Assembly: GCA_965218795.1 (NCBI GenBank)
Contig: OZ244653.1
Coordinates: forward strand, 4,864,001-4,928,000
DNA from: a bacterium
Lineage (GTDB): Bacteria; UBA8248; JACPRG01; G963555815
Direction of reading: 5' to 3'
Length of the DNA stretch: 64,000 bases
This document shows positions 42,706 through 47,367 of this stretch, one piece after another. The stretch's first letter is position 1, and each line of letters begins with the position of its first letter. The notes beneath the pieces were generated by a model, which made no database searches, was not told where the DNA came from, and was given only the letters and a program-made list of their open reading frames with translations. Made by a program: the position numbers and the translations under genes.

Positions 42706-43746
42706 TTACCCCGTTTCAGTGGACAGTTTATGGCTGTCACCTCCAGCCCTGAGTTGGGCGACAGCCGGTGGACGTAAAGTCTTCCCCAAGATCGGTGGAT
42801 AGGATATCGCTGGAGGGGATATCTTTCCCTTTGGCTCTCCGCTCCAGCAAGCACCGGGCACCCCTCGGGCCGGACGATGAACGTTGCGCACTGCACCCGG
42901 CGTTGCCTTCGCCGCGTCGCGTTCGTAGTCGTTGGGGCTGAGGTAACCCAGGGCGGAGTGCCGGCGGCGTGGGTTGTACCAGCCTTCGATGAATTGGAAG
43001 ATCGCCATGCGCGCCTCGGCCTGGGTACGGAACGAACGCCGGTCGATGAGCTCGCACTCCAGCGTGGCGAAAAAGCTCTCGGCCATGGCGTTGTCATAGC
43101 AGTCGCCGGCCGACCCGGTCGAGGGAAGCACCCCCATCTCCCGGCACCGCTTGCCGAAGGCGAGCGAAGTGTACTGCGTTCCCCGGTCCGAATGATGCAC
43201 GACCCCATAGGGCCGGCGCTGTCCCAGCGCCATGTTGAGCGCCCCGAGCACCAGCTCGGTGCGAAGATGATGGGCCATGCACCACCCTACGATCCGGCGG
43301 CTGAACACGTCGAGCACGATGGCCAGGTACACGAACCCCGCCCAGGTCGGCACGTAGGTGATGTCGGCCACCCAGATTCGGTCCGGCCCATCGGCCTGGA
43401 ACTGGCGTTCGACCCGGTCCGGGACCGCACGATGACTCGGGTCCAGACGCGTGGTGCGCGTGCCCCGGCGCCGGCTCACCCCGGCCAAGCCCGCCTCGCG
43501 CATCAGACGAGCTACCCGTTTGCGGCTCACCCGACGCCCGTTGGCCGTCAACTCGGCATGCATCCGAGGCGCCCCGTAGGTGCCGCCAGATGCCTCGTGG
43601 ATGGCCCGGATCGTGCCCCCCAACGCCTCGTCGTGCTTCGCACGATTGGAACGCCCACGGCTTCGCCACGTGTAGTACCCGCTGGAGGAGACACCCAGCA
43701 CCCGGCACATCGTGGCCACCCGATGACAGGCCTGGTTCGCCTTCAC
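42706..43746 (-). CDS. IS3 family transposase OrfB (integrase core)
   Basis: YGAPRM, WVADITY, HHSDRGTQY, DNAMAESFF and YNPRRRHSALG motifs. Confidence 0.92.
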   Translation of the reverse strand: MKANQACHRVATMCRVLGVSSSGYYTWRSRGRSNRAKHDEALGGTIRAIHEASGGTYGAPRMHAELTANGRRVSRKRVARLMREAGLAGVSRRRGTRTTRLDPSHRAVPDRVERQFQADGPDRIWVADITYVPTWAGFVYLAIVLDVFSRRIVGWCMAHHLRTELVLGALNMALGQRRPYGVVHHSDRGTQYTSLAFGKRCREMGVLPSTGSAGDCYDNAMAESFFATLECELIDRRSFRTQAEARMAIFQFIEGWYNPRRRHSALGYLSPNDYERDAAKATPGAVRNVHRPARGVPGACWSGEPKGKISPPAISYPPILGKTLRPPAVAQLRAGGDSHKLSTETG

Positions 43747-43806
43747 GAGCCCGAAGACCTCCCCGGCACCGAGCCGGTCTCCCGTGCGAACCAGACCGCG
43801 GCTTTC

Positions 43807-45172
43807 CTAAGAAACTGCCTCCGCACCCTCCTGCAGAACATACCCCAGAGAAGCGGCCCGTCGGCGAAGATTCTTCACCACACGCTGACGATAACGCTCT
43901 TCATAGTATGAAGCGCCGGGATCCACATACTTCTGCCCATATCGCAGCGTGTTGTATAGCAGGACCGCAATCTTTCGGGCGGTGGCAGTCACCGCCTTGG
44001 CCTTGCCGATCCGCGCCGACAATCGACGATAGAACGCTCCGAGCGCGGTCTCGGTCCTGCCCACCGCCACCGCCGCCAGACGCAGCACCGCAGCGGCCCG
44101 ATTCGACGTACGGCGCGTTCTCGAGGCCAGAACGCGTCCACCGGAGATCTTGTTCGCCGGCGCCAATGCAAGCCACGACGTGAAGTGCTTCGCGCTCGGC
44201 CATCGAGACATATCCGTCCCACATTCGGCGATGATCTTCAGCGCAAGGTAGGGGCCGACTCCGTGAATCTGGGTCAGGTCTACGCCGAGCAACGCATACA
44301 GGGCGCCTCGTACGTCGAAGTTCAATCCGTTGGGCTGACGCGCCTTGTGCCGAGGCGCGGGCAGCGCCGCCGACGGCTCATCGACGCCATCACTGAGGCG
44401 ACCCAGGACCGCCTCGATTTCCTGGTCGCAGCGAGCCACTTGTGCTTGATACACATCGTACAGCTCCAGGGCCTGTCTCAGCGCAAAGACGTGCTCGCGT
44501 TGGTAATGCCCGACAAGCGCTTCACGGATCGTCTCGCGTGAGGATTTACAACGGCTGTCGCGCCATGCCGCGAGTAAGTCGGGGTCGACGACCCCCGACG
44601 CGATCGCCCGAATCATCCGCAGCCCCGTCACCCCCGTGATGTCGGACACAACATGGTGAAGCTGAACATTCATCTGGGTCAGCGCCTTTTGCATGTGTTG
44701 AATGTGCGCCGCTGCATAGTCGCAGGAGGCGCTCGCGCTGTCTCAGGTAAGACCGCAACTCTGCGATCCCGCGAGTGGGGCGAAAACTGGCTCGCAACAA
44801 ACCGTACTGGTGCAGCTGCTGCAGCCACTGCGCATCGTTCACGTCACTCTTGCGTCCCGGAACCGTCTTCACCTCCCGAGCGTTCACCACGATCACTTCC
44901 AATCCATGCTCTTGAAGGATCTCGAACAACGGGATCCAGTAAACGCCCGTGGACTCCATCGCGACCGTCTCGACCCCAGCCTCTTCGAACCAGTCGGCAA
45001 GACGCTGCAGGTCGTTGGTAAAGGTCTTGAAGGTGCGTACGGGCTCGTCAGTACCCTTCGATCCCACCGCGGCCACATGGATTCGCGACCCAATGTCCAC
45101 CCCCGCCGCATTGGGATGGACCACCGTCATGCCTCGGGAAGAACGTTTCGTCCTGCGCTTTGTACTCGCCAT
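43807..45172 (-). pseudogene. IS110 DEDD recombinase with a +1 frameshift near 44722
   Basis: GVDIG, AMESTGVYW and KSDVNDAQWL in the first ORF; IHGVG and SGG (catalytic Ser) in the second. One extra C breaks LL-DYAAAHIQHMQKAL. Confidence 0.9.
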
Positions 45173-45199
45173 GGGTCCCTCTCCTTAATCATGTTGGGA

Positions 45200-45352
45200 G
45201 ATGTCCGAGAGGCGGGACGGCGGTTCCCATCATTTTCCTAATCGGGCTCGTCGATCGACGGCGCCACAGTCAAGTCCGCAGCAGTCCCTGAACCACGTTT
45301 TTTGCGGGGTCATGATCCTCCAAAAAGCTGACGGTTGCTCCCCCCGGACATC
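45200..45352 (-). ncRNA. Predicted IS110 bridge RNA
   Basis: Closing stem GATGTCCGGGGGG/CCTCTCGGACATC. Internal segments TTAGGAA and GTCCCG match the two element ends and CAAAAAA matches the target A-run. TAGAAT (-10-like) lies just upstream. Confidence 0.7.
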
Positions 45353-45411
45353 GCACATTCTACGCTGCCCACCAAGTTTCCATTCGTCCAGGAAGACGCC
45401 GTCTTGTCCCG

Positions 45412-45665
45412 TTTTTTAGGATCTCCCGCTCTTCGCGAAGCTGACGGACCTCTCGACGAAGCCGCCGCAGCTCCTCGAGCTCCGTACTTGTCAGACCGTC
45501 CTCACGACGGCCCTCGTCGCGGTCGGCCTGGCGCACCCAGTTGCGAATCACCGAAGCAGAACACTCGAACTCCCGGGCCAGCTCCCCGGGCGTACGGCCC
45601 GAGCGAACCAACTCGACCATCTGGCGCCGCTACTCCGGCGCGTAGGGCGAATGAGTCTTTCGCAT
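45412..45665 (-). pseudogene. IS3 OrfA 5' part (premature TAG, split by IS110)
   Basis: MRKTHSPYAPE*RRQMVELVRSGRTPGELAREFECS...LREEREILK. Confidence 0.85.
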
Positions 45666-45748
45666 CTGAACACCTCCTGCGCACACTCTGAAGGTGTCCA
45701 CGAAAACGGGTCAACTCCAGCGTGCCGCGCACGGCGAAGCCGTCGGTG

Positions 45749-47367
45749 TCAGCCGTTGAGAAGATCGTTCGCAACCTGCCGCGCTTCGTCCAGAGTTTCG
45801 ACGATGTGCTCCTCCGGTACGTGCTGCAGGATACCGAGGGTGTGAAGGGTGTTCGCAACGGAGCCCGAGGCGCCCATTACGATGAACCCGATCTGCTCTC
45901 TCGTGGCGACGTCCATGAGCTGCTCTATCACCATGGCAGCGCTGTCGTCGAGATATGTGGCGCCGGAGAAATCAAAGATGACGACCTCGTGGTCCTTGAT
46001 GTCCGCGCTGATCACGCCCACCAGCTTGTAGGAGGATGCGACGGTGAAGCTCCCCTTGAGCGCCACCATGCCGACCCGCGCCGCGTACGGGTCCGCCGTG
46101 GCCATGTCCTCCCGTTCGGAGAAGAACGTCCGGTCCAGCAGTGGCACGGAAACCACGCTGTCGAGTTCCAAACCTTCCAGTTGCCGCGCATGGGCCATTC
46201 CTCCGGCGATCAGCCCGATCGCTACCGCGGTTACCAGATCGACGAACACCGTAAGGCCCAGCGTCATCAGCATGACGAAAAGGTGTTCGCGCCGGATGCG
46301 GTGGACACGGGCGAGAAGACGCCAGTCGATGATGTCCCAGCTGACTTTCATCAGGACGCCGGCGAGAGCGGCAAGAGGGATCGGCTCGACAGACTGGCCG
46401 AGGCCCAGCACCAGCGCCAGCGTAAGGATCGCCCCCAATGCGCCCGATACCCGGGTGAGTCCGCCGGCGCGTATGTTGGTCACGGTACCCACGGTGGCCC
46501 CGGCGCCGGGCAGCCCCCCGAAGAGTCCCGCAACCATGTTTCCGATACCCTGACCGACCAGCTCCCGATCCGGGTTGTGGCGCGTACCGGTCAGCGAATC
46601 GGCTATCAGGGAGGTGAGGAGGCTGTCCACGGAACCGAGCAGGGCGAGAATGAGCGCCGGCTGCACTGCGTGCAACAGGAAGCCGACGGACGGCAGCCCC
46701 AACTGCACGCCCGGCAGGCTGGTCGGCACCTGCCCGATGATCGGCGCATCGTTCAGCCACAGCACGCCCAGCAGCGTGCCGGCCATCAGCGCCGCAAGAG
46801 GAGCCGGCAGGAGTCTCGCCAGCCGACGGGGCCAGAGCACGCCAACCGCGAGAGTAACGGCGGCGATGGCGAAGGCGCTGAAGTTGATGTTGGCCACCGC
46901 CTCGGGCAACGCCCCGGCCGCGCGCCCATGGGTCCGCCCGGCGCGGTGGGCGCTCCGAGGAAGGGCATGGCCTGAATCAGCATGATGATGATGCCGACCC
47001 CGGACATGAATCCGGAGATCACCACGTACGGCGTGTAGACCACGAAGCGGCCGACCCTCGATATGCCCAGGAGCGCCTGCAGCAGACCGGCCAGAACGAC
47101 GATGGTCAGGGCTTCGGTCAGATCGGCCGCGTGCTTGGTGACGATGACCGCCAGAGCGACGGTTATTGGGCCTGTGGGGCCGGATATCTGGGACCGCGTG
47201 CCGCCGAACACCGATGCGAAAAAGCCGACCGCGATCGCACCGTACAGGCCGGCCGCCGGCCCCAGGCCCGACGCCACACCGAAGGCCAGCGAGATCGGCA
47301 GCGCCACCACCATGGAGGTGACGCCGCCGAAGATATCCCCGCGAAGCGTATTGAAGTCGTAGCCCAT
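45749..47367 (-). pseudogene. SulP/SLC26 anion transporter with STAS domain, frameshifted near 46920
   Basis: GDIFGGVT..VVALP, QISGPTGP, RELVGQGIGN and STAS DFSGATYLDDS. The frame break lies in a GCGCGCG run. Confidence 0.85.

What the first reader, a model, noticed from the sequence alone, without database searches (positions are those of the whole stretch)
45173..45411. IS110 non-coding end encodes a bridge-RNA-like structure with readable donor and target guides
Seen on the minus strand: a ~150-nt region closed by a 13-bp stem (45200-45212 with 45340-45352, two G-U pairs) just after TAGAAT. One loop carries TTAGGAA (45235-45241), identical to the element's far end plus core at 43804-43810, and GTCCCG (45213-45218), complementary to the first bases of the near end (CGGGAC). 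Together they specify the circle junction TTAGG-AA-CGGGAC. A second loop carries CAAAAAA (45298-45304) and GCT, matching the target CTAAAA-AA-AGC. Known: IS621-type bridge RNAs specify donor and target in this way. Inference: a programmable recombinase orthologue with an AA core (IS621 uses CT).
Basis: partly seen in the sequence, partly recalled or inferred. Interest (0 to 1): 0.85.

Follow-up and report, generated by a model that had tools for sequence, protein, structure and literature searches.

The report
Bridge RNA gene of an IS110 element
The non-coding end of this jumping gene encodes a folded guide RNA whose loops spell out both the element's own end and its landing site, the frameshift signal of other jumping genes; this is a known kind of RNA-guided system in an unusual layout.

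Summary
An IS110-family element lies on the minus strand at 43806-45411, inside the A7G frameshift site of an IS3 element. Its 239-nt left end holds a ~155-nt structured region. In 54 related left ends the structure is supported by covariation: 86.7% of cells paired against 75.5% shuffled, and 19 of 33 pairs changed on both sides.

- AAAAAA (45303-45298) covaries with the left target flank. It changed in 4 separate lineages.
- GCUUUUU (45328-45322) covaries with the right flank.
- UUAGGAA (45241-45235) matches the right end plus an AA core. It shows 2 compensated changes.

The fourth guide is not supported. GTCCCG is the 3' strand of a covarying stem. It complements the left-end start in 1 of 54 RNAs, and no right-donor guide was found.

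The layout differs from IS621. The strand that pairs the top DNA strand lies 5' of the one that pairs the bottom strand, as in IS1111 seekRNAs. Both loops sit under one closing stem.

The window copy is frameshifted. Two of the genome's four copies carry an intact 454-aa gene.

No RNA data exist, so expression is inferred. This is a new variant of a known, already widely catalogued kind. Interest is moderate.

The parts
43806..45411 (-). IS110-family element, 1606 bp without the core; left end starts CGGGAC at 45411, right end stops ..TTAGG at 43806
   Evidence: Four identical-length-class copies in the genome and empty sites. A DNA contig joins 43803 to 45412, skipping 1608 bases. Ends are conserved as AA|C ... 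GTTTCTTAGG|AA in 71 of 80 related loci.
45412..45413 (-). Left copy of the AA core
   Evidence: Seven A in empty sites against 6+3 in occupied sites. Confirmed outside a homopolymer in G001: 170 empty sites with three A against 3+2 in occupied sites.
43804..43805 (-). Right copy of the AA core
   Evidence: As for the left copy.
45357..45362 (-). -10-like TAGAAT, putative promoter of the RNA (inferred)
   Evidence: A TAnnnT lies at the same relative place in 50 of 54 distinct left ends. The consensus promoter scan found none. No RNA data.
45340..45352 (-). P1 5' strand (closing stem)
   Evidence: Read directly. The inner 8 pairs all changed on both sides; 80.9% paired in A2 and 69% in A1.
45200..45212 (-). 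P1 3' strand (closing stem); CCUCUC is also complementary to the ribosome-binding site GGAGAGG
45333..45336 (-). P2 5' strand (AACC), outer stem of the target loop; pairs with 45291-45294
   Evidence: 100% paired; 3 of 4 pairs changed on both sides.
45322..45331 (-). 5' strand of the target loop, UCAGCUUUUU: right-target guide, complementary to the top strand (A-run, core, AGC)
   Evidence: Table of 64 loci. Permutation: 107 against 75.8, 0 of 5000.
45305..45322 (-). P3 hairpin of the target loop (UGG.GG / CCCCG)
   Evidence: The inner three pairs are G-C in 41-54 of 54. The outer two pairs hold in only 3-5 of 54 in this register.
45298..45303 (-). 3' strand of the target loop, AAAAAA: left-target guide, same sense as left target plus core
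   Evidence: Variants GCAGGGAAA, UCUCAAA, GGCAAA and CAAGAAA match their own flanks in 4 separate lineages. Permutation: 227 of 329 against 191.6.
45284..45288 (-). P4 5' strand (GGGAC), base of the donor arm
   Evidence: 97.8% paired; 4 of 5 pairs changed on both sides.
45213..45218 (-).
   Evidence: Stem strand. Complement of the left-end start in 1 of 54 RNAs.
45276..45279 (-). P6 5' strand (GCGG); pairs with CCGC at 45220-45223 and closes the donor loop
   Evidence: 91.2% paired. GCGCA/UGCGC in the L040 group.
45243..45266 (-). P5 hairpin of the donor loop (UGG..CCG plus an inner 4-bp stem)
   Evidence: P5a 100% paired with the U-G pair invariant. P5b 92.3% paired, with 3 pairs changed on both sides.
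45235..45241 (-). UUAGGAA: left-donor guide, same sense as right end plus core
   Evidence: AGGAA invariant. UCAGGAA goes with right end CTCAGG in one clade of 4, and UAUAGGAA goes with CATAGG in L055.
45229..45232 (-). Conserved UGAU after the donor guide, role unknown
   Evidence: Invariant or nearly invariant columns T126, G127, A128, T129.
43806..43810 (-). Left donor: last five bases of the element, TTAGG, which contain the stop codon of the transposase gene
44546..45172 (-). Transposase gene, N-terminal piece (208 aa, DEDD_Tnp_IS110)
43807..44694 (-). Transposase gene, C-terminal piece (Transposase_20)
44722..44722 (-). Place of the one-base length difference that breaks the reading frame in this copy
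   Evidence: Alignment of the four copies. The shorter form is seen in contigs of runs X2-X4.
45376..45381 (-). GGAAAC in the left end, inverted repeat of GTTTCT near the right end
   Evidence: RGAAAC at left-end positions 30-39 in 54 of 54. GTTTC in the right ends.
45414..45620 (-). Interrupted IS3-family orfA (left target side)
   Evidence: HTH_Tnp_1; empty sites.
42706..43803 (-). Interrupted IS3-family orfB (right target side)
   Evidence: rve, HTH_21.

Best explanation
The 239-nt left end of this IS110-family element encodes a bridge RNA, also called a seekRNA, of about 155 nt (roughly 45352-45200, minus strand).

The RNA folds as a three-way junction. A closing stem P1 carries two arms.

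Target arm: P2, an internal loop, and hairpin P3.
- The 5' loop strand GCUUUUU pairs with the top DNA strand across the A-run, the AA core and AGC of the right flank.
- The 3' loop strand AAAAAA has the sense of the left flank plus core, so it pairs with the bottom strand.

Donor arm: P4, P6, an internal loop, and hairpin P5.
- The 3' loop strand UUAGGAA has the sense of the element's last five bases plus the core.

The 454-aa DEDD/serine recombinase is intact in two of the four genomic copies. It would use this RNA to recombine the excised circle (..TTAGG-AA-CGGGAC..) with an AA inside the A AAA AAA G frameshift signal of IS3-family elements. That splits their orfA from orfB.

Shown here: element limits, the AA core, the structure, and the covariation of three guides with their DNA.

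Inferred: transcription, the circle, RNA-protein binding and catalysis.

No RNA segment that reads the left-end start was found.
For: Element and core:
- Four copies sit at the same IS3 site. Empty sites have seven A against 6+3 in occupied sites.
- In G001, 170 empty sites read GGGCAAACCAGC, while occupied copies read GGGCAAA|C.. and ..TTAGG|AA|CCAGC.

Protein:
- DEDD_Tnp_IS110 and Transposase_20.
- NF033542 'IS110 family RNA-guided transposase', 259 bits against a cut-off of 140.
- The SG motif aligns with that of IS621.

Structure:
- On a plain MAFFT alignment of 53 RNAs, 83.1% of cells pair against 75.1% shuffled. The covariation score is 0.271 against 0.133 (0 of 500 shuffles). Slid controls reach at most 61.5%.
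- On the model-fitted alignment of 54 RNAs, the figures are 86.7% against 75.5%, 19 of 33 pairs changed on both sides, and 0.331 against 0.141.
- G-U pairs fix the strand. The U-G pair of P5a is present in 54 of 54, and one P2 pair is G-U in 17.

Left-target guide:
- 227 of 329 identities at positions -3 to -9, against a permuted mean of 191.6 and maximum of 214 (0 of 5000).
- Four separate lineages on the protein tree carry changed guides that match their own flanks: L011 AGGGAAA, L036 TCUCAAA, L067 GGCAAA, L055 CAAGAAA.

Right-target guide:
- The summed complementary run is 107 against 75.8, maximum 99 (0 of 5000).
- Examples: AAGUUU with ACTT, AGUGCUU with AGCACT, GCCUUU with GGC, UCGCUU with GCGA.

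Left-donor guide:
- AGGAA is invariant.
- Two compensated changes with the right end.

The model R1 finds exactly the four copies in the genome.
Against: - No RNA evidence exists. No listed run is on record as RNA. The promoter is only a conserved TAnnnT (50 of 54), and the consensus promoter scan found none.
- The single-sequence fold is not better than shuffles.
- No right-donor guide was found. One of the four guides that define the IS621 model is therefore missing.
- 11 of 54 distinct RNA/right-flank pairs have no complementary base beyond the A-run.
- In L010, L057 and L067 the donor guide differs from the right end at position -5 without compensation.
- The outer two pairs of P3 fail in 48-50 of 54 in the register of the window copy.
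- The permutations do not correct for shared descent.
- The targets are A-rich, so part of the match is low-complexity.
Confidence: 0.85

Rival explanations
1. This would be an IS621-type bridge RNA in which GUCCCG (45218-45213) is a true right-donor guide pairing with CGGGAC at the left-end start, at least in this lineage.
For: - The 6-of-6 complementarity is read directly.
- The nearest relative, L010 (92% protein identity), has the same left-end start and GUCCCC at that place, which is 5 of 6.
- An exact match at a named place has a chance of a few percent in an RNA of this size (my estimate, not a tool result).
Against: - The segment is the 3' strand of P4. It is paired in 97.8% of cells and covaries with GGGAC.
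- The exact complement at that site occurs in 1 of 54 RNAs.
- No excess over permutation in the region: 6 observed against 6.7 with wobble, and 2 against 1.2 with Watson-Crick only.
- WIN and L010 are one lineage.
- Close relatives change left-end positions 2-7 with no RNA change.
Confidence: 0.1
2. The conserved left-end structure is mainly a cis-acting leader of the transposase mRNA that controls translation. The matches to the flanks are by-products of A/T runs.
For: - The 3' strand of P1 (CCUCUC) is also complementary to the ribosome-binding site GGAGAGG. The 239-nt fold pairs them.
- The same relation is seen by eye in several relatives, such as CCCCUC/GGAGGG and GCCCUCC/GGAGGGC.
- The structure lies directly upstream of the start codon.
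Against: - A leader would not make loop bases follow the flanking DNA of each lineage.
- A leader would not carry the element's own right end plus core in a loop with compensated changes.
- The anti-SD relation was not counted, and by eye it is absent in the beta/gamma-proteobacterial group.
- The two roles are not exclusive.
Confidence: 0.04
3. Chance: a GC-rich non-coding end folds anyhow, and short A-rich and T-rich words meet an A-run target by accident.
For: - Fold z-scores are -1.19 and +0.30.
- TTAGGAA is not over-represented in the window.
Against: - Covariation in six of the seven helices.
- Permutation tests.
- Non-A guide variants that match non-A flanks.
Confidence: 0.01

Closest known systems
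IS621 bridge RNA (IS110 group; Durrant et al. 2024, PMC11208160; Hiraizumi et al. 2024, PMC11208158)
   Same: - Encoded in the left end, upstream of a DEDD/serine recombinase gene.
- Two pseudo-symmetric internal loops, one for the target and one for the donor.
- Each left guide has the sense of the top strand up to and including a 2-nt core that donor and target share.
- The right-target guide is complementary to the top strand.
- The guides covary with the DNA.
   Different: - Core AA instead of CT.
- Guide order in each loop is reversed. In IS621 the 5' side pairs the bottom strand (LTG 50-58 lies before RTG 77-80).
[quoted passage not shown]
- No right-donor guide was found.
- The putative promoter lies wholly inside the left end.
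- The recombinase has 454 aa against 326, and is only weakly similar (E 1.9e-5).
- The right end is essentially nil, because the stop codon lies in the last five bases.
IS1111-family seekRNAs (ISEc11, ISPa11, ISKpn4; Siddiquee et al. 2024, PMC11187229)
   Same: The segment complementary to the top strand lies 5' of the one complementary to the bottom strand, and the two matches overlap in the target.
   Different: [quoted passage not shown]
- Here the RNA is upstream and the protein has 454 aa.
- Only a 6-bp GTTTCT/AGAAAC repeat is seen, placed asymmetrically.
ISEc21 seekRNA (IS110 type; Siddiquee et al. 2024)
   Same: Non-coding region upstream. The target lies inside IS3-family elements.
   Different: [quoted passage not shown] This element lands at the frameshift signal.
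- In ISEc21 the top-strand match is 3' of the bottom-strand match.
- The ISEc21 transposase has 358 aa.
Catalogue of bridge RNA variants (86 covariance models, 32,190 RNAs; bioRxiv 10.64898/2026.10.21.760802)
   Same: That work states that many models deviate visibly from the IS621 structure yet covary with target and donor. This RNA may well fall in one of those clusters.
   Different: I could not see its figures or supplements. Whether this family, its guide order or its target is described there is unknown.

Membership tests
IS110-family RNA-guided transposase (protein) | DEDD RuvC-like domain plus Tnp (PF02371) domain with the SG motif | tested here: met
   PF01548 (E 8e-21) and PF02371 (E 6e-14) on the two pieces. 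NF033542 at 259 bits against a cut-off of 140 on the intact copy. KISGG aligns with the ESG of IS621.
Bridge RNA / seekRNA of the IS110 family (general) | Structured RNA gene in a non-coding end next to the recombinase gene | tested here: met
   Helices covary. The position is conserved in 54 related loci.
Bridge RNA / seekRNA of the IS110 family (general) | Loop segments that match both strands of the target and covary with it | tested here: met
Bridge RNA / seekRNA of the IS110 family (general) | The RNA is made and binds the recombinase | not testable with these tools
   No RNA holder listed.
IS621-type bridge RNA | Donor loop with a left-donor guide matching right end plus core | tested here: met
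   UUAGGAA matches TTAGG+AA, with two compensated changes. Three lineages are uncompensated at position -5.
IS621-type bridge RNA | Right-donor guide complementary to core plus left-end start | tested here: not met
   No signal over permutation. Exact complement at the proposed site in 1 of 54.
IS621-type bridge RNA | 5' side of each loop pairs the bottom strand, and the 3' side pairs the top strand | tested here: not met
   Reversed in both loops.
IS621-type bridge RNA | A 2-nt core shared by donor and target | tested here: met
   The core is AA. IS621 has CT.
IS621-type bridge RNA | Promoter rebuilt across the circle junction | tested here: inconclusive
   The conserved -10-like motif lies 50-55 nt inside the left end, so a -35 would also be inside. 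No circle junction appears in the DNA contigs.
IS1111-family seekRNA | Top-strand match 5' of the bottom-strand match | tested here: met
IS1111-family seekRNA | Non-coding region downstream of the transposase gene | tested here: not met
   The stop codon lies in the last five bases. The 239-nt non-coding region is upstream.
IS1111-family seekRNA | Subterminal inverted repeats of 7-17 bp | tested here: inconclusive
   Only GTTTCT (4 nt from the right end) and RGAAAC (30-39 nt from the left end), 6 bp, present in 54 of 54.
Rfam families | Match to any curated model | tested here: not met
   Only a chance-level hit inside the coding region.

The most novel reading that the evidence does not exclude
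This would be a lineage of left-end-encoded bridge RNAs that is a circular permutation of the IS621 design. The guide order is reversed in both loops, and both loops sit under one closing stem.

It would read the donor on one side only, with no right-donor guide.

It would also have specialised as a parasite of other insertion sequences. It lands in the programmed-frameshift A-run of IS3 elements and, after natural re-aiming of the right-target guide, of IS630 elements. Those hosts cannot mutate this signal without losing their own transposase.
Probability: 0.35. Interest if true: 0.65.

Novelty: new variant of a known kind. Interest (0 to 1): 0.5.

Why it matters
The principle, a bispecific guide RNA for an IS110 recombinase, has been known since 2024. 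It has been predicted for most family members and catalogued at scale. The finding does not open a new kind of system.

It does add a well-delimited natural example from the long-transposase branch, with four features of its own:
- an AA core;
- a very short right end, in which the donor guide reads the gene's own stop-codon region;
- a guide order so far reported, in the passages I read, for IS1111-type RNAs encoded at the other end;
- no detectable right-donor guide.

If one-sided donor reading is real, it bears on how much RNA-DNA pairing a bridge recombinase needs. That question matters for engineering.

The target choice is also of interest. 60 of 71 reconstructed sites are A-runs of 6-8. 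33 of 80 loci lie in IS3-like contexts and 23 of 80 in IS630-like contexts. This is a clear case of one mobile element using the recoding signal of others as a safe, multi-copy landing pad. The right-target guide has changed naturally between the two host families.

Tried and rejected
- Rfam search of 43000-46500 at E up to 1 gave only a chance-level Xoo2 hit in the coding region.
- Single-sequence folds were not better than shuffles.
- The sigma-70 consensus scan found no promoter.
- A mutual-information matrix between RNA columns and DNA positions was dominated by shared descent and was not used.

The search for a right-donor guide gave nothing over permutation in any of these tests:
- 6-mer scan of all columns. 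The best place had 10 of 54 RNAs against a permuted maximum of 7. All ten are one alphaproteobacterial clade with a palindromic left-end start.
- Anti-diagonal scan of the two variable segments of the donor loop.
- Exact complement count.
- Region-wise permutation in four regions.

Considered by eye and dropped as inconsistent:
- The DBL 5' strand reads the donor in the same register as the target loop.
- The base after the left-target guide tracks the second left-end base. It matched in about half of the types by eye and was not counted by a script.

Sequencing runs:
- No RNA holder was listed.
- Contigs of four DNA runs of one study showed the empty-site joint and the shorter variant at 44722, but no right-end-to-left-end junction. 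Contigs drop rare forms, so this says nothing about circles.

Names and literature:
- tblastn against plasmids gave only the generic name 'IS110 family transposase'.
- Literature searches for IS110 elements that target the IS3 frameshift site and for a permuted bridge RNA found no paper on either. Figures and supplements were not visible, so this is not proof of absence.

I did not place the protein on a tree with named IS1111, IS110 or IS621 sequences, because I held no such sequences from a tool.
Full report
**What is at the site.**
On the minus strand the window carries an IS110-family element from 45411 (CGGGAC..) to 43806 (..TTAGG).

Its gene is split by a one-base length difference near 44722 into two pieces:
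- 208 aa with a DEDD_Tnp_IS110 domain;
- 295 aa with a Transposase_20 domain.

The element sits inside an IS3-family element, between its HTH orfA and its rve orfB.

The genome is a single 5.17-Mb contig. It holds four copies of the element, all at the same place in IS3 copies.
- Two copies share the extra base.
- The other two read through to a 454-aa protein.
- That protein scores 259 bits against NCBIfam NF033542, 'IS110 family RNA-guided transposase' (cut-off 140).
- It is only distantly like IS621 (E 1.9e-5). The SG motif is aligned.

**Limits and core.**
Uninterrupted IS3 copies read GAGATCCTAAAAAAAGCCGCGG, with seven A. Occupied sites read ..CCTAAAAAA|CGGGAC.. and ..TTAGG|AAAGCC.., with six A plus three. 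The element therefore brings two A.

DNA contigs of four public runs of one study contain the empty form as a joint from 43803 to 45412, skipping 1608 bases. They also contain the one-base-shorter gene variant.

An A-run hides the exact crossover, so I looked for a relative in a site with fewer A. The copies L067-L074 have GGGCAAA|C.. on the left and ..TTAGG|AA|CCAGC on the right. Their genome holds 170 empty sites reading TTCTGGGCAAACCAGCTGCGGG, 97 forward and 73 reverse, with 0 in the reversed-pattern control. Three A in the empty site against 3+2 in occupied sites fixes a 2-nt AA core. The left end then starts at C and the right end stops at GG.

- the 13-bp stem with two G-U pairs;
- TAGAAT (45362-45357);
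- TTAGGAA in the RNA and at the far end;
- GTCCCG opposite CGGGAC;
- CAAAAAA;
- GCU within CAGCUUUUU.

Taken alone this is not beyond chance. The 163-nt fold has z = -1.19 and the 239-nt fold +0.30. TTAGGAA occurs twice in 64 kb against 2.57 expected, though exactly at the two named places. Rfam has nothing.

**Relatives.**
A scan of one genome per species found 596 candidate stretches. Of these, 499 encode a relative, and the best 80 were kept (62-92% identity, many phyla).
- 77 loci had enough upstream sequence. The left boundary reads AA|C in all of them, after a two-base correction in L018.
- The right end GTTTCTTAGG|AA was found in all but six of them.
- That leaves 71 loci with both limits, 64 non-redundant combinations and 54 distinct left ends.
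- Dropped for no right-end match to my pattern: L042, L047, L056, L071, L075, L083.
- Dropped for short upstream sequence: L063, L064, L065.
- L010 was left out of the tool alignment because it holds a run of N.

**Structure.**
From the alignment I drew one structure with these parts:
- P1, the closing stem;
- P2, target loop, P3 hairpin;
- P4, P6, donor loop, P5 hairpin.

On a plain MAFFT alignment of 53 RNAs:
- 83.1% of cells pair against 75.1% in shuffles;
- the covariation score is 0.271 against 0.133 (0 of 500);
- with partners slid by one to three columns, at most 61.5% pair.

After fitting to a covariance model, which leans towards the structure:
- 86.7% pair against 75.5%;
- 19 of 33 pairs changed on both sides;
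- the score is 0.331 against 0.141;
- slid controls reach at most 59.4%.

Per helix:

| Helix | Cells paired | Pairs changed on both sides |
|---|---|---|
| P2 | 100% | 3 of 4 |
| P4 | 97.8% | 4 of 5 |
| P6 | 91.2% | 1 of 4 |
| P5a | 100% | 0 (invariant) |
| P5b | 92.3% | 3 |
| P1 | 80.9% | 8 of 8 |
| P3 | 58.2% | 0 |

P3 scores low because its outer two pairs hold in only 3-5 of 54 in the register of the window copy. The window copy has one base fewer there.

G-U pairs set the strand as that of the gene. The P5a U-G pair is present in 54 of 54, and one P2 pair is G-U in 17.

The model finds four places in the own genome, which are the four copies.

**Target loop.**
The 3' strand, ..CCCCG-C-AAAAAA-C.., has the sense of the left flank plus core.

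Most relatives sit after an A-run and carry A6-7 there. Four do not, and their RNA follows:
- L011: flank GCAGGGAAA, RNA GCAGGGAAA;
- L036: TCTCAAA, UCUCAAA;
- L067 group: GGGCAAA, GGCAAA;
- L055: CAAGAAA, CAAGAAA.

On the protein tree these four stand in separate places among A-run types.

Over 47 distinct RNA/flank pairs, identities at -3 to -9 are 227 of 329, against a permuted mean of 191.6 and maximum of 214 (0 of 5000). At positions where guide or flank is not A, 28 of 64 match against 12.2.

The 5' strand, ..N5-UUUUU-GG, is complementary to the top strand from the A-run into the right flank:

| Right flank | RNA | Loci |
|---|---|---|
| AGC or GGC | GCUUU | most, window included |
| ACTT | AAGUUU | L014-16, L029, L030 |
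| AGCACT | AGUGCUU | L084 |
| GGC | GCCUUU | L041, L076/L087 |
| GCGA | UCGCUU | L080 |
| GTGG | CUACUU | L017 |

The summed run of pairs beyond the A-run over 54 distinct pairs is 107 against 75.8, maximum 99 (0 of 5000). With Watson-Crick pairs only it is 86 against 57.2.

Against this, 11 of 54 pairs have no pair at all and 8 have only one. So the right flank is read loosely.

These permutations ignore shared descent. The tree shows several separate changes but I did not count them formally.

**Donor loop.**
The 3' strand carries UUAGGAA, with AGGAA invariant.

The right end varies little because it encodes the last residues and the stop codon. Where it does vary, the RNA follows twice:
- CTCAGG with UCAGGAA, in one well-supported clade of four (L036, L043, L066, L070);
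- CATAGG with UAUAGGAA, in L055.

Three lineages (L010, L057, L067) differ at -5 without compensation.

**The fourth guide.**
GUCCCG is the 3' strand of P4.
- Its exact complementarity to the left-end start occurs at that place in 1 of 54 RNAs. One other RNA, L081, has such a match elsewhere.
- L010, the sister of the window copy, has 5 of 6.
- Relatives that share a donor loop differ at left-end positions 2-7. Examples are L040/L045/L046, L041/L076 and L014/L023.
- Scans for complementarity to core plus left-end start found nothing above permuted pairings, in any column, in the two variable loop segments, or in four regions.
- The one apparent excess is a single clade with a palindromic left-end start.

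I conclude that no right-donor guide is detectable. The invariant C after the left-target guide equals the invariant first left-end base. That is an observation without a test.

**Comparison with what is known.**
[quoted passage not shown] The order is stem, LTG 50-58, stem-loop, RTG 77-80, and likewise for the donor (passages of PMC11208158). Here the order is the reverse in both loops.

Siddiquee et al. (PMC11187229; abstract and sections 6, 9, 12, 13 read) report three things that bear on this:
- In IS1111-family seekRNAs the top-strand match is 5' of the bottom-strand match. In the IS110-type ISEc21 it is 3'.
- The IS1111 type has its non-coding region downstream.
- Transposases of the branch around IS110 itself are 395-455 aa long.

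The present element therefore combines the IS110 layout and protein size with the IS1111 guide order.

Durrant et al. predicted bridge RNAs in 85.7% of IS110 and 93.0% of IS1111 elements of ISfinder, with diverse structures. A 2026 preprint built 86 models for 32,190 RNAs and states that many deviate from IS621 yet covary with their DNA (section 8 read).

I could not see figures or supplements of any of these. This family may already be among those models.

Searches for the frameshift-site target and for a permuted design found no paper on either.

**Targets.**
- Of 71 reconstructed empty sites, 60 have an A-run of 6-8.
- With the window's own IS3 proteins as the only queries, 33 of 80 loci have an orfA-like flank upstream and/or an orfB-like flank downstream on the same strand.
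- With the flanks of L016 as queries, 23 of 80 have IS630-like flanks. The L016 flanks carry HTH_32/33/29 upstream and DDE_3 downstream.
- These are the alphaproteobacterial copies whose right-target guide reads AAGUUU for ACTT.

The family thus lands in the A-run between the two reading frames of IS3 and IS630 elements.

**Mechanism, and what is shown.**

Shown:
- the limits and the core;
- the covarying structure and its strand;
- the coupling of three loop segments to their DNA;
- intact recombinase genes in two copies.

Inferred from the family's established biology:
- excision to a circle;
- transcription from the conserved TAnnnT (50 of 54);
- binding of the RNA by the recombinase;
- strand exchange at AA.

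No run on record as RNA holds the sequence, so expression is untested.

**Verdict.**
This is a real bridge RNA gene. It is a new variant of a known and already broadly catalogued kind.

Noticed in passing
window 45200-45212 and 45177-45184 (minus strand): The 3' strand of the closing stem (CCUCUC) is also complementary to the ribosome-binding site GGAGAGG of the transposase gene, and the 239-nt fold pairs them. The same relation is seen by eye in several relatives (CCCCUC/GGAGGG, GCCCUCC/GGAGGGC), but not in the beta/gamma-proteobacterial group. It may couple RNA folding to translation.
   Followed up: no
window 45376-45381 and 43811-43816 (minus strand): RGAAAC lies 30-39 nt inside the left end in 54 of 54 distinct left ends. 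It is the inverted repeat of GTTTCT, which lies 4 nt from the right end. This may be a short subterminal inverted repeat.
   Followed up: partly
window 45229-45232; P5 and P3 internal loops: UGAU after the donor guide is nearly invariant (AUGAUG in the window). Both hairpins carry a conserved UGA / AU(C) internal loop in most relatives. This recalls box C / kink-turn motifs, which is of interest given the proposed IS110-Nop5 link. That resemblance is recalled, not tested.
   Followed up: no
L019, L023, L069: Tandem copies: the right end of one copy is followed by AAA and then the left end of the next. This reads as if a second copy had landed in the A-run beside the first, one base off.
   Followed up: no
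L072 and L074 (genome G001): L072 has an IS3-like left flank with the right flank of the 170-copy repeat. L074 has the reverse. These reciprocal chimeras suggest recombination between two copies of the element.
   Followed up: partly
G001, 170 places (for example L090-L097): A 22-nt word TTCTGGGCAAACCAGCTGCGGG occurs 170 times in one Vicinamibacterales genome and serves as a landing site for that genome's element. The nature of the repeat is not known.
   Followed up: no
G000 2952000-2952100 (minus strand): A third, diverged IS3 copy in the own genome has only six A (CCTAAAAAAGCTACGG) and is unoccupied.
   Followed up: no
window 45393-45405 (minus strand): A small GC-rich palindrome (AAGACGGCGTCTT) lies just inside the left end. 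Relatives have other GC-rich palindromes at the same place.
   Followed up: no
window 44615-44736: Summed contig depth in the four DNA runs rises 10- to 50-fold over this stretch of the transposase gene, with loose ends at 44660 and 44700. This suggests that a short part is shared with another abundant sequence in those samples.
   Followed up: no
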